Shown: in pieces, positions 1,553 through 18,181 of the stretch
Layout of the letters: every line of letters begins with the position of its first letter
Position numbering within the stretch: the first letter of the stretch is position 1
IMG/VR virus record: IMGVR_UViG_2711768022_000010
Strand: one strand, 5' to 3'
DNA length: 44,411 nt
DNA from: a virus
Taxonomy: Duplodnaviria; Heunggongvirae; Uroviricota; Caudoviricetes
The notes under the pieces: generated by a model
Seen by the model: the letters and a program-made list of their open reading frames with translations, nothing else
What the model was told of the DNA's origin: nothing
Databases searched by the model: none
Position numbers and translations under genes: made by a program

Positions 1553-1741
1553 TCACGAGGACTGAAGTTTCTCGCAATTAAAATTTATCAGTTTTACTTT
1601 CTGCTCTCTGGAAACGCCTGCTTCTTTTTTACCTGAGAGCATTTTTTCGCATTCTGATTTCGTTAGTTTAGATTTTGAATATCTTGTCCAGTTAGTAGGA
1701 GTGCCACCTTCCTTTTCAATAGTGGCGGTAATTTTATACAT
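1553..1741 (-). CDS. ydaC: Small hypothetical protein (YdaC-like)
   Basis: ATG at 1741 preceded by GGAGGTG RBS (MYKITATIEKEGG...); overlaps the ancestral ralR stop (ATGTATAA). The longer track ORF 1553..1813 probably starts too far upstream. Confidence 0.5.
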   Translation of the reverse strand: MYKITATIEKEGGTPTNWTRYSKSKLTKSECEKMLSGKKEAGVSREQKVKLINFNCEKLQSS

Positions 1742-6670: not shown

Positions 6671-7159
6671 ATGTTGGATGTATTTACTCCATTGTTGAAA
6701 CTTTTTGCTAACGAGCCACTCGAAATACTTATGTATACGATTATCATTTTTGGTCTCACTCTCTGGCTGATACCGAAAGAGTTTACTGTCGCATTCAATG
6801 CTTATACTGAAATACCTTGGCTCTTTCAGATTATCGTTTTTGCCTTTTCTTTCGTGGTCGCCATTTCCTTCTCAAGATTGCGAGCACATATTCAAAAGCA
6901 TTATTCATTACTACCAGAGCAACGAGTATTGCTTCGTTTATCTGAGAAAGAAATCGCTGTATTTAAAGATTTCCTTAAAACAGGAAATCTTATTATCACT
7001 TCTCCTTGCCGTAACCCGGTTATGAAAAAATTAGAACGGAAGGGCATCATTCAACATCAGAGTGATAGCGCAAACTGTTCTTATTATCTCGTCACCGAAA
7101 AATACTCCCATTTTATGAAGTTATTCTGGAACAGCAGGAGTAGACGTTTTAATCGTTAG
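6671..7159 (+). CDS. sieB: Superinfection exclusion protein SieB
   Basis: 162 aa from MLDVFTPLLKLFANEPLEILMYTIIIFGLTLWLIPKEF with N-terminal hydrophobic helices; recalled as Rac SieB; opposite strand to flanking early genes. Confidence 0.85.
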   Translation: MLDVFTPLLKLFANEPLEILMYTIIIFGLTLWLIPKEFTVAFNAYTEIPWLFQIIVFAFSFVVAISFSRLRAHIQKHYSLLPEQRVLLRLSEKEIAVFKDFLKTGNLIITSPCRNPVMKKLERKGIIQHQSDSANCSYYLVTEKYSHFMKLFWNSRSRRFNR

Positions 7160-7311
7160 CTTACTGTGTGCTTCTCCAACCATCGGCGCGCACCAGTTTC
7201 GGTTTTAAATGTTTTGCTTTTGGTATACGTCATGGCAGTGAACGTTCCATCCTGGTTGGGGAACACGCCGCACACCAGGGATTCGTTGTTGCCGAGGTCG
7301 ATTTTTTGCAT
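7156..7311 (-). CDS. ydaF: Small protein YdaF-like (51 aa)
   Basis: Hand translation MQKIDLGNNESLVCGVFPNQDGTFTAMTYTKSKTFKTETGARRWLEKHTVS; stop overlaps sieB stop by 4 nt; below ORF-track cutoff. Confidence 0.7.
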   Translation of the reverse strand: MQKIDLGNNESLVCGVFPNQDGTFTAMTYTKSKTFKTETGARRWLEKHTVS

Positions 7312-7321
7312 TTTGCGAATC

Positions 7322-7456
7322 TCACATCTTGTTGCTGTGTATAGCGACTTCTGCCTGCCAGAGATCCCAGTCGTTGCTGCGTAAAGCCTGCACAGCCTGG
7401 TTGTAAGTGATACCGCAACAATCCATCAAATACTGAACTACTTCGTAATGCACCAT
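7322..7456 (-). CDS. ydaG: Small protein YdaG-like (44 aa)
   Basis: MVHYEVVQYLMDCCGITYNQAVQALRSNDWDLWQAEVAIHSNKM within track ORF 7322..7504; recalled Rac ydaG. Confidence 0.75.
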   Translation of the reverse strand: MVHYEVVQYLMDCCGITYNQAVQALRSNDWDLWQAEVAIHSNKM

Positions 7457-7746
7457 CTTATCTCTCCCCTTAACGCCGGGTGGCGGAACTGAAACCTGCT
7501 GCACTGCAAAATCTGAACCCTGCCGTCATGTTCATACGCCTCGGGCTGGCTACTTAACCCCTGACCACTGCCTGGTAACTCGAAGTATTGCCCTGCGTTC
7601 TGTGGGGCGGGGTGGGTTGGTAGGTATATAATGTACTTTGTGTTCATTGATGTAAAGTACTATAAGTACATTTTGTGTGTAAAAAAATGAGATGGGATAA
7701 AGTGAAGCACAAACCCGGAGGGGGACGCTACCGGATTTATGCTGGT

Positions 7747-8184
7747 TTAAGAGGCTTTTTGTTTTTTCTTTCGTGCTAGCTCTTCGTAAATTGCATTGTA
7801 CTTCTGTTTTTTCTCCTCAAGAGTTTTTAAAAGTTCATCTGTCTCACTGTCAGGGAGCTCGTCCAGAAGGTCAATGATGATTTTTTGTCTTGGATTTAAC
7901 TCCTGATAGAAACGTACCTGTCCACTTTCTTCTGTATCCTCTCCCAAAAGATAGGTTGGTGTTGTTCCAATGAGTGTTGCTAATTCCCTTAATTTCTCTC
8001 GGCGAGGAATTGTTTCGCCATTAAACCATTTGCTAACCGCTTTTGGTGTTAATTTCATTCGACGGGCAATTTCTGCCTGCCTTCCATGTTGTTCATAACC
8101 AGCGTTTTCACAGGCTAGCGCAAGCCTACTGGCGAACTCTTTACGCGCTTTATCTTCATGAACCATAAGTTCAATGATATTCAC
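7747..8184 (-). CDS. racR: Prophage repressor RacR (XRE-family HTH)
   Basis: HTH segment RQAEIARRMKLTPKAVSKWFNGETIPRREKLRELATLIG; divergent from ydaS-ydaT as in Rac; exact start (8184 or 8166) uncertain. Confidence 0.8.
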   Translation of the reverse strand: MNIIELMVHEDKARKEFASRLALACENAGYEQHGRQAEIARRMKLTPKAVSKWFNGETIPRREKLRELATLIGTTPTYLLGEDTEESGQVRFYQELNPRQKIIIDLLDELPDSETDELLKTLEEKKQKYNAIYEELARKKKQKAS

Positions 8185-8186
8185 TC

Positions 8187-8221
8187 TTGAATGTACTGTC
8201 AGTTCTGTTATAGCATGTACT
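8187..8221 (+). promoter_or_regulatory. Candidate ydaS promoter/operator: TTGAAT, 15-16 nt spacer, TTATAG/TATAGC, flanked by two ATGTACT direct repeats
   Basis: TTGAAT 8187-8192; -10-like hexamer at 8208-8214; ATGTACT at 8191-8197 and 8215-8221; sits in the 61-bp racR/ydaS divergent intergenic region. Confidence 0.35.
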
Positions 8222-8245
8222 CAAAGTTCACATTGTGAGGGTGAT

Positions 8246-8500
8246 ATGAACCAGAAAACACTTGAAGATGTAATCAAAACTGTTCGCGTTTCTGTTGTGG
8301 CCGACGTTTGTGGTGTCAGCCAAAGAGCAATCTACAAATGGATGGATAACGGAAAATTGCCTCGCACAGAATATACCGGCGAAACAAATTACGCTGAAAA
8401 AATCGCTCATGCATCAAACGGATTATTTTCTGCTGATGTAATTTTAACTATTGGCAGAAATAAAACTACTACGAAAAAGCTGATGGGAGTTGATTCATGA
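8246..8500 (+). CDS. ydaS: Cro-like small regulator YdaS
   Basis: ATG 8246 preceded by GAGGGTG; product MNQKTLEDVIKTVRVSVVADVCGVSQRAIYKWM... with HTH; overlaps ydaT start by 4 nt. Start could lie upstream (track ORF begins 8174). Confidence 0.7.
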   Translation: MNQKTLEDVIKTVRVSVVADVCGVSQRAIYKWMDNGKLPRTEYTGETNYAEKIAHASNGLFSADVILTIGRNKTTTKKLMGVDS

Positions 8501-8919
8501 AAATCAAGCATGAGCACATCGAGTCAGTGTTGTTAGCCCTGGCAGCCGAAAAAGGGCAGGCATGGGTAGCCAATGCCATTACTGAAGAATATCTGCGCCA
8601 GGGGGGCGGCGAATTGCCCCTGGTACCAGGCAAGGACTGGAATAATCAGCAGAATATCTATCACCGTTGGTTGAAAGGTGAAACGAAAACGCAAAGAGAA
8701 AAAATTCAGAAGCTGATCCCAGCAATTCTGGCAATCCTTCCGCGCGAGCTGCGTCACCGACTCTGCATCTTCGATACCCTGGAACGCCGTGCATTACTGG
8801 CGGCGCAGGAAGCGTTAAGTACGGCAATTGATGCGCATGATGATGCAGTCCAAGCCGTTTACCGGAAAGCGCATTTCAGCGGCGGCGGGTCTTCCGACGA
8901 TTCTGTCATTGTTCATTAA
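8497..8919 (+). CDS. ydaT: YdaT (toxic partner of ydaS, repressed by RacR)
   Basis: 140-aa ORF MKIKHEHIESVLLALAAEKGQAW..., same length as K-12 YdaT. Confidence 0.85.
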   Translation: MKIKHEHIESVLLALAAEKGQAWVANAITEEYLRQGGGELPLVPGKDWNNQQNIYHRWLKGETKTQREKIQKLIPAILAILPRELRHRLCIFDTLERRALLAAQEALSTAIDAHDDAVQAVYRKAHFSGGGSSDDSVIVH

Positions 8920-10564: not shown

Positions 10565-11326
10565 ATGGAGACTGTTTTTGACGCACTGAAAGCAATGGGA
10601 AAAGCCACATCCATAGAACTTGCTGCGCGACTTGATATCAGTCGTGAAGAAGTGCTGAACGAACTATGGGAACTGAAAAAAGCTGGTTTCGTTGATAAAA
10701 GCGCGTACACCTGGCGTGTGGCTGATAACAACGTTCAGCAGGAACAGCCAATGCAGGCAGAACTGCCGGAAGAAACCACCACGGCAACTGTAGTGAAAAT
10801 CTCAGAGTGCGATTTAACCGCGACGATTGAACAACGCGGACCACAAACGGCGGATGAACTGGCTACGCTGTTCGGTACAACATCCCGCAAAGTTGCTTCA
10901 ACGCTGGCAATGGCAATCAGCAAAGGACGCCTGATTCGCGTAAACCAGAACAGTAAATTTCGTTACTGCATGCCGGGCGATAATTTACCAGCAGAGCCGA
11001 AAGCTGCATCGGTAGCGGAAACTGATGGTAAAGCCTTTCCTCAGCCAGCCGGTGTTGCGTTACCAGTACAGGAAGCGGCAACACAGGAAGATATTAAAAC
11101 AGAAACTGTGGCGGACATTGTGCAGTCGCTGCCATCGTTTACTGAAACGCAAGCGGATGACCTAGTTTTACCATCGCTGCATATGGCAAACCGCGAACTG
11201 CGTCGGGCGAAAAATCATGTCCAGAAGTGGGAGCGAGTCTGCGCCGCGCTGCGGGAGCTGAACAAGCACCGGGATATTGTCCGACAGATTGTCGATTCCT
11301 CCAGTCGTATTGTGTCGGAAAAGTGA
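10565..11326 (+). CDS. ydaW: Putative tandem winged-helix DNA-binding protein (YdaW-like, apparently full length)
   Basis: ATG 10565 after GGGAGG RBS; two repeats resembling winged-helix units ([30 protein letters not shown] and [33 protein letters not shown]). Confidence 0.55.
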
Positions 11327-11341
11327 TTGCCGGAGGCGCTT

Positions 11342-11758
11342 ATGGCAAAAGTTTTTACACAGGAAGAGCGTGAAAAAATTAAGGAGCAGGTTGTTGAGTT
11401 GGTACGCCAGAGTGGGCGCGAGACGTTAAGGCAACTGGAGGCCAAGACAGGTGCGACAAGATATCTGATGAGCATTCTTGCCAGAGAGTTGGTTGCCAGT
11501 GGCGATGTATACAACTCTGGCTATGGGTTATTCCCGTCTGAACAGGCTCGTAAGGATTGGAAAAACGCCCGCAAAAAACTATCCAGGGCAAAGGTGAAAA
11601 AAACGGTTGTGGTTGATCCTGACCTTATCTGGTCATTACCAGACGGAGAAATACGCCGCTATGACAGGCGTCAGAACATAATCTGTCGCGAGTGCCGGAA
11701 GAGTGAAGTTATGAAACGTGTACTGGCATTTTATCAAGGAAATCTTCGGTATTTATAG
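11342..11758 (+). CDS. Hypothetical basic protein with possible HTH
   Basis: ATG 11342 after CGGAGG RBS; product MAKVFTQEEREKIKEQVVELVRQSGRETLRQLEAKTGATRYLMSILAREL...; function unknown. Confidence 0.5.
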   Translation: MAKVFTQEEREKIKEQVVELVRQSGRETLRQLEAKTGATRYLMSILARELVASGDVYNSGYGLFPSEQARKDWKNARKKLSRAKVKKTVVVDPDLIWSLPDGEIRRYDRRQNIICRECRKSEVMKRVLAFYQGNLRYL

Positions 11759-11896
11759 ACGTTACTAGATCAAAGAGCATTAGTTCATATGTAAATTGAC
11801 ATTTTTCTGGCACAGGGGAGAGCTAGCGTGGTTGTCCGCTTTGTGCCAATAGCGGACATTGCTGGCTCATGGTATGTTAGTTTAAGGAGGCAGGTT

Positions 11897-12919
11897 ATGC
11901 CCTGTATTTCGCTGTGGTATAATAGTTGCGCAATTGATACAAGGGAGCGTTACATCGTGAAAATTGTTTTCGAGGTTAATGGAAAGAAAGTTCCACTAAA
12001 ATCTTTAAAATACATAAGCAAAAAAGATCAACTCGAAGTAATGAAAAACTGGTTCTTTGAAAACTTTGAAGATCCGGCAAATGCTTGTCCGTATGAAAGT
12101 AGAGAAGGTGGCTATGCTTACATATATGGCGGGCCGTATGATGCGAGCGAAGAACTACAATCCATCTTCGGTCAATATGTTAAATCTGAGTATATTGAGG
12201 AATTAGTAGATGAATTACAAACACAATGTTTTGACTGGTCTGGAAACTCAAATAATATAGATGATTGGTACGATGATGATATCTACGACGCTGTAACGTC
12301 TTCCGGTAATCCGTATTTAAAATTCATTGATAATATCGATAAAATAAAAAAACTTGCAAAAGATAAAACTGAACAACAGCAAAAAAACCACTTGCTTAGT
12401 TTGCTCTACACGAATGTTATTACAGCTTTGGAAACGCTTTATGTTGAGCTATTCATTAATTCTATAGAGAAAGATGATGTCTACATAGCCAATTGTATAG
12501 AAAAAGGTAAGACTGAATTTAAAGTAAGCAAAGATATTGCTGCGTTGCCTTTCAAGGGTGAACCCATCGAGAAAATTAGGGGAGAGCTAATCAGGTCAAT
12601 CAAGGAACACTTGATCAGTGCAAGCTGGCATAGCACTAAAAAGGTAATCGACCGCTATGAAGCTACATTCGATATAAAAGTACAAAAAGACTGTCCGATA
12701 GAAGCTATTGAATTGGCAACCCTCAATCGAAATCACTTAGTGCATCGTGGTGGAAAGGATAAAGAAGGGAACCTCGTAGTGATTACAGACCAGGATCTTG
12801 AAACGCTGATTGAAAATGCATCGAACCTGGCAATTATGCTCTACAACAGTTTAAATGTAGCAACGAATAAAACCACCATTTTGCAACCAGATGACAAACC
12901 GTTCATTCATGAATTTTAA
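11897..12919 (+). CDS. Hypothetical protein A of AT-rich cassette; C-terminal RNxxxH (HEPN-like) motif
   Basis: ATG 11897 with AGGAGG RBS 6 nt upstream (alternative GTG 11957 downstream of an extended -10 TGgTATAAT at 11915-11923); C-terminal segment ELATLNRNHLVHRGG fits the HEPN Rx4-6H signature; visibly AT-rich; not recognised from K-12 Rac. Confidence 0.7.
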   Translation: MPCISLWYNSCAIDTRERYIVKIVFEVNGKKVPLKSLKYISKKDQLEVMKNWFFENFEDPANACPYESREGGYAYIYGGPYDASEELQSIFGQYVKSEYIEELVDELQTQCFDWSGNSNNIDDWYDDDIYDAVTSSGNPYLKFIDNIDKIKKLAKDKTEQQQKNHLLSLLYTNVITALETLYVELFINSIEKDDVYIANCIEKGKTEFKVSKDIAALPFKGEPIEKIRGELIRSIKEHLISASWHSTKKVIDRYEATFDIKVQKDCPIEAIELATLNRNHLVHRGGKDKEGNLVVITDQDLETLIENASNLAIMLYNSLNVATNKTTILQPDDKPFIHEF

Positions 12920-12934
12920 TAGCGCAGGTCATAC

Positions 12935-13936
12935 ATGGATATTCGCACACGAAAGACAAAATTTTTAGAGTCGTTAGATTCAACTGAAGTGATACGCAAA
13001 GCAGTAAGTCTCGCTATAGATTGCATTATTGATAATCATAATAGTAATGAAGATACCCCCTTAGTTATTACCAGCTATGATGATCTCTGTAGAATCCAGG
13101 TGCTAAATTATGTACAGGAGTTTTGCGAAGCTGCATTCCCTGATATGGATGAATATTACTTTAGTCCTAACATACTTCGCATCAACGGCAAGACTAGTGA
13201 AGAAGCTTGTATTAACTTAATTAAACTCTTAAGAAGTACAAAAGGCATGCTATTCTGGTCCGATGCCCCATCGTGGTTCGCTAGCCTCCCCGACGGATTA
13301 TTCCATGTTGTTAACATTGATCAAAAAATCGTTACTCGCGGCCTTAATAAGAAAAACTCTAAGCCGACAATAATCAATAAAGATTACAGTGTAGATACAC
13401 TACTATCAGAGCTATTTTTGAATGGCGCACACATGGAGCAACCCAACGTACACAACGTTTCTGAGGGAAACATGAAGTTCTATGATGAATGCCATGCTGG
13501 ATTAATCAGACCAATACCCGCTCCAATAGGCGCGTCATACGATGAAGAGATCACAATTAATTCTCCAGATTGGCAAAAGCTCGCGTGTGTAGCTTTACGC
13601 CGCTATCAGTCGAAGGAATGTCATGACGGAATGCAATGGGATACAACCGATCATGGTTGGACTGATGTAATCGCGTATCCATTCGTCGAAGAAATACAAT
13701 CAATGGATAATAGTGGTTATCGACAATGTTTAGTTGGGCTGGTCACAATAAACAATTCAAATGCAAATTCTCCGTACCTATCTACCGTTTGGATACATCC
13801 ATTTTATCGCAGGAGAGGGTTATTAAGTAAGTTATGGCCAAAATTACAAGAGTTATATGGAAGTAACTTCGAAATTGAGCGACCTAATGAAAATATGAAA
13901 GCATTTCTGAAAAGTGCGAAACACGCAGATTACTAA
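12935..13936 (+). CDS. Hypothetical protein B of AT-rich cassette (333 aa)
   Basis: Starts 15 nt after gene A stop (operon-like); AT-rich; C-terminal stretch VWIHPFYRRRGLLSKLW vaguely resembles a GNAT acetyl-CoA-binding motif (weak); no recognised homolog. Confidence 0.72.
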   Translation: MDIRTRKTKFLESLDSTEVIRKAVSLAIDCIIDNHNSNEDTPLVITSYDDLCRIQVLNYVQEFCEAAFPDMDEYYFSPNILRINGKTSEEACINLIKLLRSTKGMLFWSDAPSWFASLPDGLFHVVNIDQKIVTRGLNKKNSKPTIINKDYSVDTLLSELFLNGAHMEQPNVHNVSEGNMKFYDECHAGLIRPIPAPIGASYDEEITINSPDWQKLACVALRRYQSKECHDGMQWDTTDHGWTDVIAYPFVEEIQSMDNSGYRQCLVGLVTINNSNANSPYLSTVWIHPFYRRRGLLSKLWPKLQELYGSNFEIERPNENMKAFLKSAKHADY

Positions 13937-14497
13937 TTTATGAATCAGTCTGTGGAGTTAGGGTTGGTGTGAACAAGTAGGGTAAGAGCCTCAACGTGAT
14001 GCTATGCCGACCTGCTCCCTGAGAATTCACACAGAAGGCTGCTAGCAATGTCTGCAGATCGCTCAAAGCGGACTAAAATGTTGGCTTGTTTCTGACTTAG
14101 AGCATTTAAGGAAGTGCTGGTGGTGACTGGTTGTTGTGTTCCATTTCTACAGAATAAAATCACAGAAACTATACCCAATAGTTGTATTGAATCACTGACG
14201 AGACAGCCTCATATTTATCAGGACTGGTGTGCGTCTAATACAGGGGGTTGTCGTGCTGGTTCTCAAATGTGCGCTGGCTATTGCGGCTGTAATGGCAATT
14301 TATTGTCTTGCTGTTGTTCTTATGGAGCGGCTTTCTGATTGATTACATACTGGCTAGAAAAAAGGTGTTACCTTGGTTTATCTTTGTCCGGCAAGGTGCG
14401 CTCATTAATCTTAAGTAAATTTATTGCTCAAGTATTCAGATTACTTCTTATGGTTGAAGTCTCCTGTCAATGTAGAACCAATATATTTACAAAAATG

Positions 14498-14527
14498 AGA
14501 CCCGTCGGGGATAGCCCTGCCGGGTCT
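14498..14527 (-). terminator. Rho-independent terminator for the minus-strand DUF1971-like gene
   Basis: On the minus strand AGACCCG...CGGGUCU 7-bp stem followed by CAUUUUUGU, about 30 nt downstream of the gene stop at 14557-14559. Confidence 0.5.
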
Positions 14528-14556
14528 GACTGTTAAAGCATTTTTAATATGATCAT

Positions 14557-14895
14557 CTATTTTTTGGTGCTATAGACTTTTTCGCCCGAAAAGTCTGGAG
14601 CGACCCAAAAGTTAATATTAAACTGAGCATCATCGCTTAGTTCAACACGGTGCCAGTATTGTGGTGGGCTTGTTGCAAAAGCGCCAGCATTAATGACTAC
14701 TTTTATCTCCGGTTCAGTAGCATTCTCATCAGTAAAACCATAATATGTTACAGTGCCTTCCATTACGCACAACTGCCCAAAAACACCTGCTGCTGTATTA
14801 TGATGTGTTAATAACGCTGAAGGTACGTTCTCTTTTGTGAAGAACGGAGTTGAGCGTTTGATTACCCAATCTTTAGGAATTCTCTTGTGTGTCAT
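14557..14895 (-). CDS. TehB-N-terminal-like / YeaR-like small protein (DUF1971-type)
   Basis: ATG 14895 after GGAGGAGG RBS; motifs HHNTAAGVFGQLCVMEGTVTYYGF and WHRVELSDD resemble the recalled N-terminal domain of TehB/YeaR proteins; family assignment from memory. Confidence 0.65.
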   Translation of the reverse strand: MTHKRIPKDWVIKRSTPFFTKENVPSALLTHHNTAAGVFGQLCVMEGTVTYYGFTDENATEPEIKVVINAGAFATSPPQYWHRVELSDDAQFNINFWVAPDFSGEKVYSTKK

Positions 14896-17590: not shown

Positions 17591-18181
17591 GGGCTGGTTT
17601 ATTGTATGCCAAATGATTATTAAAAAGGTTGTGTTAATAACAAGATCCGAAATAATATGCCTGCATATTTTTATCTTGCTTATATTCTGCATATTGTGCA
17701 TAGCAGGCTCATCCCTGCAATCAAAACTGTATGATGAGTATTTTTTGTTTTCCTTTTTTCCAGTCATCTGATGATGACCTGCTTCTTTTTAATCCGGATC
17801 GACATCAGTTTTTTAAGATAATTCCTGCGAGTTATATGCATAAATGCCACAAACTCCGCATTTTATGTGGTTGGGAGTTGCCGGGCGCGCAGTGAGTTTG
17901 CTAAGAAAACTCCTGCATGGTGAATCCCCCTGTGCGGTGGGGTGATACCATTAACCTTTTCTGTCGCCGACAGGTATCACGAACATTTTGTTCACCGGGA
18001 GGCACCCGGCACCATGCACTTCAATAGATTCTCTCCACATTATGGATATTCTTTCAGAATATCCCACGCAGACTTTGTGTAAATGTTAACAAATGTGCGT
18101 TTTATTTGATCTGATTCGCTGTTTGAGCGTCCAAAACAACGGTATATATAATCCTTTACTATATGACATATGTGAGGAAAA

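What the first reader, a model, noticed from the sequence alone, without database searches (positions are those of the whole stretch)
11897..13936. Uncharacterised two-gene AT-rich cassette with a HEPN-like RNxxxH protein: candidate anti-phage or toxin module
Two tightly linked genes (15-nt spacer) sit between the replication genes and the nin/Q region, where the K-12 Rac remnant (from memory) goes almost directly to rzpR/rzoR/trkG. Both are visibly AT-rich against the prophage backbone, which suggests separate acquisition. Protein A ends with ...IEAIELATLNRNHLVHRGG..., which fits the Rx4-6H (RNxxxH) active-site signature of HEPN ribonucleases found in abortive-infection and toxin proteins. 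Protein B (333 aa) has no recognisable family; its C-terminal YRRRGLLSKLW stretch only weakly recalls a GNAT motif. I could not match the pair to any named defence system, so it may be a new HEPN-based module.
Basis: partly seen in the sequence, partly recalled or inferred. Interest (0 to 1): 0.8.

Follow-up and report, generated by a model that had tools for sequence, protein, structure and literature searches.

The report
Prophage HEPN defence gene plus acetyltransferase-like passenger
This AT-rich two-gene insert in a Rac-like E. coli prophage is real and its first gene is a HEPN-type anti-phage protein, but the same cassette was already tested and published in 2026 as defence system DS-33; there the second, acetyltransferase-like gene was not needed for protection.

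Summary
The spacer is 15 nt. GC is 36-39% against about 49% in the neighbouring replication genes.

B has a family-specific N-terminal domain and a divergent GNAT fold.

The cassette is not new. Protein A is 100% identical to DS-33A, and B differs by one residue from DS-33B, in DeWeirdt et al. (Science 2026, PMC13092281). Their plaque data show 2-6 logs of protection against T7, T3, Bas67 and Bas26. Protection is lost on deleting A or mutating R258A and kept on deleting B.

My comparative data agree. A is a solitary gene in 77 of 80 genomes, both genes survive natural IS1 knock-outs of the other, and A has been deleted at least twice with B retained.

Still open are the RNA target, the trigger and B's role. 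The tested B allele carried P289L at an otherwise invariant residue.

Verdict: a real defence gene, already known, with modest residual interest.

The parts
11757..11956 (+). Left end of the variable (moron) segment and upstream non-coding leader of gene A. It includes an in-frame ATG at 11897 with an AAGGAGG Shine-Dalgarno sequence.
   Evidence: Homology to a QueH-carrying Rac-like prophage (L153) stops at 11756, the end of the DUF977 gene. Positions 11832-11933 are conserved at about 87% even in derivatives that have lost gene A. No consensus sigma-70 promoter was scored here. [quoted passage not shown]
11957..12919 (+). Gene A, identical to DS-33A (WP_014639476.1), 320 aa: HEPN/RES N-terminal domain 1 plus a RiboL-PSP-type HEPN RNase domain. 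This is the anti-phage effector.
12032..12232 (+). HEPN/RES N-terminal domain 1 (aa 26-92 of A), the presumed sensor or regulatory module.
   Evidence: Pfam PF18870 gives E 2.2e-5 and 25.2 bits when the N-terminal part is scanned alone; the gathering cut-off is 27.4. Invariant M29, W32, F33, P40, P45, G51, G52, G58, G59, P60. The same domain is fused to PIN_8 in P0117.
12728..12745 (+). HEPN active-site motif R258-N-H-L-V-H263 (Rx4H), followed by invariant R264.
   Evidence: Translation checked. R258, H263 and R264 are invariant in 47 sequences down to 26% identity. R258A abolishes defence in both published replicates.
12920..12934 (+). 15-nt A-B spacer (TAGCGCAGGTCATAC).
   Evidence: Sequence read. 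The length is constant at 15 nt in the paired loci down to 78% B identity, with one apparent exception caused by an alternative start call. It is also retained upstream of B in the derivatives that lost A.
12935..13936 (+). Gene B (WP_000354966.1; DS-33B with P289 instead of L289), 333 aa: a family-specific N-terminal alpha/beta domain (about aa 1-170) plus a divergent GNAT-fold domain (about aa 176-333). Function unknown; not required for the published defence phenotype.
13799..13801 (+). Codon P289 of B, at the end of strand beta4 just before the R292-R-R-G295 CoA-loop motif. The only published test used an L289 allele.
   Evidence: The window has CCA, Pro. The published DS-33B has Leu. Pro in 43 of 43 aligned relatives, invariant in the stand-alone homologues, and Pro in 56 of 56 fetched copies.
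13937..14184 (+). Right-hand non-coding part of the variable segment.
   Evidence: Homology to the QueH-type prophage L153 resumes at 14185. In a second lambdoid backbone (L157, L158) the shared block runs on to 14357.

Best explanation
The segment 11757-14184 is accessory cargo (a moron) in a variable slot of a Rac-like lambdoid prophage, just downstream of the DUF977 replication-region gene.

Gene A is a self-contained, single-protein anti-phage defence, published as DS-33A. Its N-terminal HEPN/RES-NTD1 module probably senses or gates. Its C-terminal RiboL-PSP-type HEPN domain is the effector.

By analogy with other solo HEPN defence proteins (HepS, ApeA, DARNA), A most likely sits in the lysogen as an inactive oligomer. 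An infection cue would switch it on. Two Rx4H motifs would then come together across a HEPN dimer and cut host or phage RNA (tRNA anticodon loops or mRNA). Translation stops and the infection aborts.

Gene B is co-transcribed and co-inherited with A but is functionally separable. It is a GNAT-fold protein, probably acetyl-CoA dependent, with its own N-terminal domain. It is not needed for A's known defence phenotype and must have a function of its own or a modulatory one.

Shown: the defence phenotype, the requirement for A and for R258, the dispensability of the L289 allele of B, the HEPN and GNAT folds, and the separability of the genes in genomes.

Inferred: RNase activity, dimer activation, an abortive mode, the sensor role of the NTD, and any acetyltransferase activity of B.
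For: Identity with a tested system. A is 320/320 identical and B 332/333 identical to the DS-33 proteins. Table S6 of PMC13092281 lists the unit as defensive.

Published plaque data, -log10 EOP in two replicates:
- Wild type: T7 3.8/2.6, T3 3.3/2.4, Bas67 4.0/2.0, Bas26 5.0/5.9.
- B deleted: T7 4.8/4.3, T3 3.3/3.3, Bas67 4.0/3.3, Bas26 5.0/4.9.
- A deleted: every value between -0.5 and 0.55.
- R258A: every value 0.78 or lower.

Autonomy of A. There is no conserved neighbour in 80 genome loci spanning many phyla.

Separability. In strain SF-173 IS1 splits B while A is intact and has the same accession. In AHB12 IS1 truncates A while B is intact. Loci L097, L146 and L147 have lost 11934-12855 or 11891-12877 but keep the leader, the spacer and an intact B.

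Moron status. The slot after DUF977 holds QueH, an alpha/beta hydrolase or small ORFs in other prophages. The same cassette sits in two different nin-region backbones. GC is low.

Analogues. HepS and DARNA are solo HEPN abortive-infection anticodon nucleases that need their Rx4H residues.
Against: - No RNase assay, RNA target, trigger or abortive-infection test for this protein was found in the paper's main text or tables.
- The window protein itself does not reach the Pfam thresholds: PF18870 scores 22-25 bits against 27.4, and PF18735 does not hit directly. Family assignment is transitive, through relatives and structure.
- 'B is dispensable' rests on one allele carrying P289L at an invariant residue, on a plasmid, with five phages in the mutant assays.
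- A and B have co-diverged as a unit. dS runs 0.05/0.05 up to 0.65/0.64, the spacer is fixed at 15 nt, and both are under purifying selection. That is more linkage than two unrelated genes strictly need.
- Defence is equal or slightly stronger without B for T7, T5 and Bas67, which could mean that B modulates A.
Confidence: 0.8

Rival explanations
1. Obligate two-component HEPN-GNAT system. B is an antitoxin-like or regulatory partner that keeps A off, for example by acetylating it as MntA AMPylates HepT, or is needed to activate it.
For: Tight 15-nt linkage, constant across paired loci. A and B have co-diverged with matching dS and both are under purifying selection. The pair moves as a unit between two lambdoid backbones and into other elements. 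Defence is slightly higher without B for T7 (+1.0 and +1.7 log), T5 and Bas67. The tested B allele carried P289L at an invariant site, so a null allele may have been compared with a deletion.
Against: Deleting B leaves cells viable and fully defended. A is solitary in 77 of 80 genome loci, with no B-like or other conserved partner. Strain SF-173 carries an IS1-disrupted B with an unchanged A protein. B persists intact after A is deleted or truncated. Distant B relatives at 56% identity or less stand alone. B has no MNT, RHH or DUF1778 features.
Confidence: 0.1
2. Two independent single-gene modules stacked in one moron. A is a HEPN defence. B is a second, autonomous function against other phages or elements, or a counter-defence or host-modifying acetyltransferase that benefits the mobile element (AcrVA5-like logic; that comparison is from my own knowledge).
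For: B is kept intact with omega 0.19-0.42, and it is kept after at least two independent deletions of A. Its C-terminal half exists as a stand-alone family of about 160 aa, found next to replication genes on a phage contig (DUF3987 primase-helicase, ERF, terminase; L159) and on a small integrative element (HTH_17, DUF3631; L162). Distant full-length B relatives lie alone in variable neighbourhoods; one is next to a large ORF that I judge, from the sequence alone and untested, to look like an AAA-type ATPase.
Against: B alone, in the published construct lacking A, gave no protection against T7, T3, T5, Bas67 or Bas26, although with the L289 allele. DefensePredictor gave B a log-odds of only 1.08 against 9.45 for A. 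There is no PADLOC hit for B or its relatives. There is no biochemical evidence of acetyl transfer, and G295 of the CoA loop is not invariant.
Confidence: 0.3
3. Ordinary prophage housekeeping genes of the replication or nin region, with no conflict function.
For: Position between the replication genes (DnaC-like, DUF1627, DUF977) and the nin/Q-like genes. The stand-alone GNAT-like relatives also follow replication genes.
Against: The pair is absent from most prophages that share both flanks, and the slot holds unrelated cargo there. 3900 genomes carry DUF977 but only 209 carry the cassette. Defence has been shown experimentally. A relatives occur in non-phage contexts across phyla.
Confidence: 0.02

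Closest known systems
DS-33 (working name 'GNAT') of DeWeirdt et al., DefensePredictor, Science 2026 (PMC13092281)
   Same: Same locus type. DS-33A is 320/320 identical to protein A and DS-33B is 332/333 identical to protein B. Same gene order. Found in an ECOR-collection strain. Defence against T7, T3, Bas67 and Bas26 depends on A and on R258.
   Different: The window's B has the consensus P289 where the tested allele has L289. The window shows the native prophage context, which the paper's tables do not describe.
PD-T4-2 (Vassallo et al. 2022): DUF262 protein plus RiboL-PSP-HEPN protein
   Same: The same HEPN subfamily (PF18735) is listed for PD-T4-2. The paper's HHblits links A to PD-T4-2_B at probability 96.1 over 55% of A.
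   Different: There is no DUF262/ParB-like partner here. No PADLOC PD-T4-2 model matches A or any of 47 relatives. A carries the HEPN/RES-NTD1 domain instead.
Solo HEPN abortive-infection proteins: HepS (Gifsy-1 prophage), ApeA, DARNA/PD-T7-3
   Different: These are different HEPN families and architectures. DARNA has an N-terminal HEPN plus a Pds5-like domain, and HepS is a bare HEPN domain. A's trigger, oligomeric state and RNA target are unknown.
HepT/MntA (HEPN-MNT) type VII toxin-antitoxin
   Different: The neighbour is a GNAT fold, not a nucleotidyltransferase. It lies downstream, is dispensable, and is absent from most A relatives.
GNAT toxins of type II TA systems (TacT, AtaT, ItaT, KacT)
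   Same: B has a GNAT fold.
   Different: There is no small RHH or DUF1778 antitoxin gene. B is twice as long and has a unique N-terminal domain. Its best structural matches are AAC(3), SSAT, HAT1, MYST and ESCO1-type enzymes rather than the tRNA-acetylating toxins. B survives without any partner.

Membership tests
DS-33 (DefensePredictor validated system) | Sequence identity of both proteins to the cloned unit (WP_014639476.1 plus WP_000354965.1) and the same gene order | tested here: met
   A is 320/320 identical. B is 332/333, differing only at P289L. The same accession for A is annotated in a genome identical to the window.
HEPN superfamily | All-alpha HEPN fold | tested here: met
HEPN superfamily | Conserved Rx4-6H motif | tested here: met
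   R258-NHLV-H263 is present. R258 and H263 are invariant in 47 relatives. The encoding bases were checked.
HEPN superfamily | Metal-independent RNase activity | not testable with these tools
   Only genetic evidence exists: R258A abolishes defence.
RiboL-PSP-HEPN (Pfam PF18735) | Match to the family profile at the curated threshold | tested here: inconclusive
   The window protein gives no PF18735 hit even at E up to 10. 21 of 47 full-length homologues do hit, best E 9.9e-10. The published HHblits probability is 96.1.
HEPN/RES N-terminal domain 1 (Pfam PF18870) | Match to the family profile at the curated threshold (27.4 bits) | tested here: inconclusive
   The window protein scores 22.2-25.2 bits, just under the cut-off. 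46 of 47 homologues match at E below 0.01.
PD-T4-2 | DUF262/ParB-like partner gene next to the HEPN gene, and a match to the PADLOC PD-T4-2 models | tested here: not met
   There is no such neighbour. No PADLOC hit for A or its 47 relatives.
HepT/MntA type VII TA | Adjacent MNT nucleotidyltransferase antitoxin that is needed to tolerate the toxin | tested here: not met
   The neighbour is a GNAT fold. B is dispensable. A is solitary in most genomes.
GNAT superfamily (protein B) | GNAT core fold | tested here: met
GNAT superfamily (protein B) | Profile match and the acetyl-CoA loop motif Q/R-x-x-G-x-G/A | tested here: inconclusive
   PF00583 scores 19.9 bits for the full protein and 21.3 bits for the C-terminal half, against a cut-off of 20.7. 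R292 is invariant. G295 is usually but not always kept, and the last position is L, M or F.
GNAT-type TA toxins (TacT/AtaT) | Cognate RHH or DUF1778 antitoxin gene adjacent; toxin of about 170 aa | tested here: not met
   There is no such gene or domain. B is 333 aa and persists alone.

The most novel reading that the evidence does not exclude
Protein B, a family-specific N-terminal domain fused to a divergent GNAT core whose stand-alone form sits next to replication genes on a phage contig and on a small integrative element, may be an autonomous, selected function of mobile elements. It could be a new single-gene defence with a different phage range, a counter-defence or host-modifying acetyltransferase, or a brake on the neighbouring HEPN protein. 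Its role may have been missed because the only published test used an allele with P289L at an invariant residue.
Probability: 0.3. Interest if true: 0.55.

Novelty: already known. Interest (0 to 1): 0.3.

Why it matters
Those were cloning with the native upstream region, a phage panel, mutating the catalytic arginine, and A alone against A plus B.

What this analysis adds:
- The native context: a variable cargo slot after DUF977 in a Rac-like prophage.
- Evidence that the HEPN gene is an autonomous module spread across many phyla.
- Evidence that the GNAT-like gene is under selection and outlives loss of the HEPN gene.
- The caveat that the published 'dispensable' result used a B allele mutated at an invariant proline.

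The open questions are the RNA target and trigger of DS-33A and the function of B. They are ordinary follow-up questions for a validated defence system, not a new kind of system.

Tried and rejected
- Direct Pfam, NCBIfam and PADLOC scans of both proteins gave only sub-threshold hits. PHROGs gave only families of unknown function.
- Sequence searches of the PDB with both family profiles gave nothing meaningful.
- A search for a conserved partner of A in 80 genome loci found none beyond B in the three closest loci.
- Promoter and terminator scans of 11300-14700 were no better than shuffled sequence. Rfam found no RNA family in the cassette.
- DARNA/PD-T7-3 and HepS were considered as identities and rejected because their architectures differ.
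- A domain-centric defence screen (PMC13069673) mentions neither HEPN nor GNAT.
- Full-text search for the protein accessions found nothing. They appear only in the supplementary tables.
- Only two distant matches to A exist among 50,697 deposited phage genomes.
- The TA reading and the housekeeping reading were rejected for the reasons given under the rivals.

Full report
**Observation.** The window is an essentially complete Rac-like lambdoid prophage integrated next to ttcA. A region identical to window 11700-14100 in E. coli FORC_081 is annotated intR, xisR, ralR, recET, kilR, sieB, repressors, ydaT, replication genes, DUF1627, DUF977, two hypothetical proteins, DUF1971 (minus strand), DUF1367/DUF1364/DUF1133, lysis genes, trkG, then structural genes. 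The two hypothetical genes are the finding. A is the mechanical ORF 11828..12919 and B is 12935..13936. They are separated by 15 nt. GC is 0.361 for A and 0.391 for B, against 0.488 for the replication region upstream and 0.46 for the window. The RNHLVH peptide is encoded at 12728-12745.

**Start codon of A.** PGAP starts at the GTG at 11957. Relatives start there with ATG. In several diverged paired loci the ORF is exactly 320 codons.

**Are A and B one system?** I fetched 80 genome loci encoding A relatives from many phyla.
- Only the three closest, at 98-100% identity, have B downstream. No other neighbour family recurs in more than three loci. A is therefore normally a solitary gene.
- I also fetched 71 metagenomic and viral loci encoding B relatives. 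B at about 75% identity or more is normally preceded by A. More distant B relatives, at 56% or less and by their sample names mostly from marine metagenomes, stand alone.
- In the paired clade the spacer stays at 15 nt. The synonymous divergences of A and B track each other, from 0.05/0.05 up to 0.65/0.64. Both are under purifying selection, with omega 0.12-0.21 for A and 0.19-0.42 for B. The pair has been inherited as a unit and B is functional.
- Three 'B-only' loci at about 86% identity are deletion derivatives. They keep window-equivalent 11832-11933 (or 11836-11890), then jump to 12856-12878 and run on through the spacer and an intact B. A has been lost at least twice with B kept.
- In complete E. 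coli genomes, 209 carry each gene. Strain SF-173 has IS1 inside B with an unchanged A protein. Strain AHB12 has IS1 removing the first half of A with B intact.
- Neither gene therefore behaves as the antidote of the other.

**Context.** Compared with a Rac-like prophage that shares both flanks, the variable segment is 11757-14184. That prophage carries a small ORF and QueH instead. Other prophages have QueH plus hokD, a string of small ORFs, or an alpha/beta hydrolase in the slot after DUF977. DUF977 is in 3900 of 5426 genomes, the cassette in 209. The cassette also occurs in a second lambdoid backbone (hokD, DUF968, RusA) with homology from 11332 to 14357. It is mobile cargo in a hotspot.

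**Already known.** The protein accessions led to DeWeirdt et al., 'DefensePredictor' (Science 2026, PMC13092281). Table S6 lists working id 'GNAT' on NZ_QOWT01000046.1 at 6922-8901, with WP_014639476.1 plus WP_000354965.1, marked defensive = TRUE and named DS-33. [quoted passage not shown] Protein A in the window is identical to DS-33A. B differs at one residue.

Table S7 gives -log10 EOP in two replicates:

| Construct | T7 | T3 | Bas67 | Bas26 | T5 |
|---|---|---|---|---|---|
| Wild type | 3.78 / 2.60 | 3.30 / 2.40 | 4.0 / 1.98 | 5.0 / 5.9 | 0.77 / 0.08 |
| B deleted | 4.78 / 4.30 | 3.30 / 3.30 | 4.0 / 3.30 | 5.0 / 4.9 | 1.73 / 0.55 |
| A deleted | between -0.48 and 0.54 for all five phages | | | | |
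| R258A | 0.78 or lower for all five phages | | | | |

Table S8 gives A a DefensePredictor log-odds of 9.45 and an HHblits link to PD-T4-2_B RiboL-PSP-HEPN at probability 96.1. B gets a log-odds of 1.08 and no homologue. I found no discussion of DS-33 in the main text beyond its being counted among four validated systems with HEPN domains. I found no RNase, trigger or abortive-infection data.

**Caveat on B.** The tested DS-33B has Leu at position 289. The window has Pro, as do 43 of 43 aligned relatives, all stand-alone homologues and 56 of 56 fetched copies. P289 sits at the end of strand beta4, immediately before the R292-R-R-G295 loop that corresponds to the acetyl-CoA-binding motif of GNATs. 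The published 'B is dispensable' result may therefore compare a hypomorph with a deletion. Two further observations keep B's role open: B is selected and co-inherited, and defence is equal or slightly higher without it.

**Mechanism.** The best-supported picture is that A is a self-contained HEPN ribonuclease defence. NTD1 acts as a sensor or gate. HEPN domains dimerise to form a composite Rx4H site. An infection cue activates RNA cleavage and so blocks phage production. [quoted passage not shown] Only the genetic requirement for A and R258 is shown. The rest is inference.

**Verdict.** The HEPN and anti-phage interpretation is right. The claims of novelty and of a two-gene system are not supported. 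The finding is already known as DS-33. The residual interest lies in B and in the still-unknown trigger and target.

Noticed in passing
window 14253-14342 (+): Unannotated 29-codon ORF with a GTG start and GGGGG 4-5 nt upstream. It encodes a hydrophobic peptide, VLVLKCALAIAAVMAIYCLAVVLMERLSD, followed by terminator-like hairpins at 14277-14331. It is intact, with only conservative substitutions, in 35 fetched loci, and it lies in sequence shared by two prophage backbones. It is a candidate small membrane peptide or type I toxin-like peptide.
   Followed up: partly
PMC13092281 Table S8 versus window 13799-13801: The published DS-33B allele carries P289L at a residue that is Pro in every relative examined. 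The published conclusion about the GNAT gene may therefore rest on a defective allele.
   Followed up: yes
L097 1422-2682; L146 5817-7075; L147 5878-7076: B-only loci are clean internal deletions of gene A that keep the leader, the spacer and B. In L147 the remnant follows a 780-aa ORF that looks to me like a P4-alpha-type primase (judged from its sequence, not tested), so the cassette may also ride on satellite-like elements.
   Followed up: partly
L151 5644-6606 (also P0147, P0148): In some prophages a deletion fuses the N-terminus of the DnaC-like replication protein in frame to the C-terminal 200 residues of B, giving a 320-aa chimera. This is prophage decay.
   Followed up: no
L002 (JAIHTM010000277.1, 'Collinsella sp.' MAG) and L003 (Serratia grimesii NBRC 13537): A 3.3-kb contig binned as Collinsella (Actinomycetota) carries the cassette with a gene A match 100% identical to the E. 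coli protein and the same B downstream. This is almost certainly a binning contaminant. A 98% identical copy in Serratia grimesii suggests recent cross-genus transfer.
   Followed up: no
window 1557-1735 (+) and 17885-18071 (+): Rfam hits above gathering score: the RalA antitoxin sRNA of the RalR/RalA type I TA (225 bits) and the sRNA STnc100 (86.6 bits). Both are known prophage-borne RNAs.
   Followed up: no
L153-L156 (slot after the DUF977 gene, equivalent to window 11757-14184): The slot downstream of DUF977 is a cargo hotspot in lambdoid prophages. Alternatives seen are epoxyqueuosine reductase QueH (with or without hokD), an alpha/beta hydrolase, or eight small hypothetical ORFs.
   Followed up: partly
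H1 (NZ_CP084096.1), H7 (NZ_CP073936.1), L157, L158: Insertion sequences have hit the cassette repeatedly in different strains: IS1 in SF-173 and AHB12, and IS2- and ISSen4-family transposases annotated within the matches in H1 and H7, whose positions I did not examine. The IS1 in SF-173 has a 9-bp target duplication at window 13488-13496.
   Followed up: partly
P0117; L066, L067, L074: HEPN/RES-NTD1 is also found C-terminal to a PIN_8 nuclease, and N-terminal to unassigned domains of about 150-200 aa in Alphaproteobacteria. This fits an adaptor or sensor domain shared by several nuclease effectors.
   Followed up: partly
L159 3619-5411; L162 1761-4614: The stand-alone GNAT-like relatives of B's C-terminal half, about 160 aa, sit directly after primase or helicase-type genes (DUF3987, DUF3631) on a phage contig and on a small integrative element.
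   Followed up: partly
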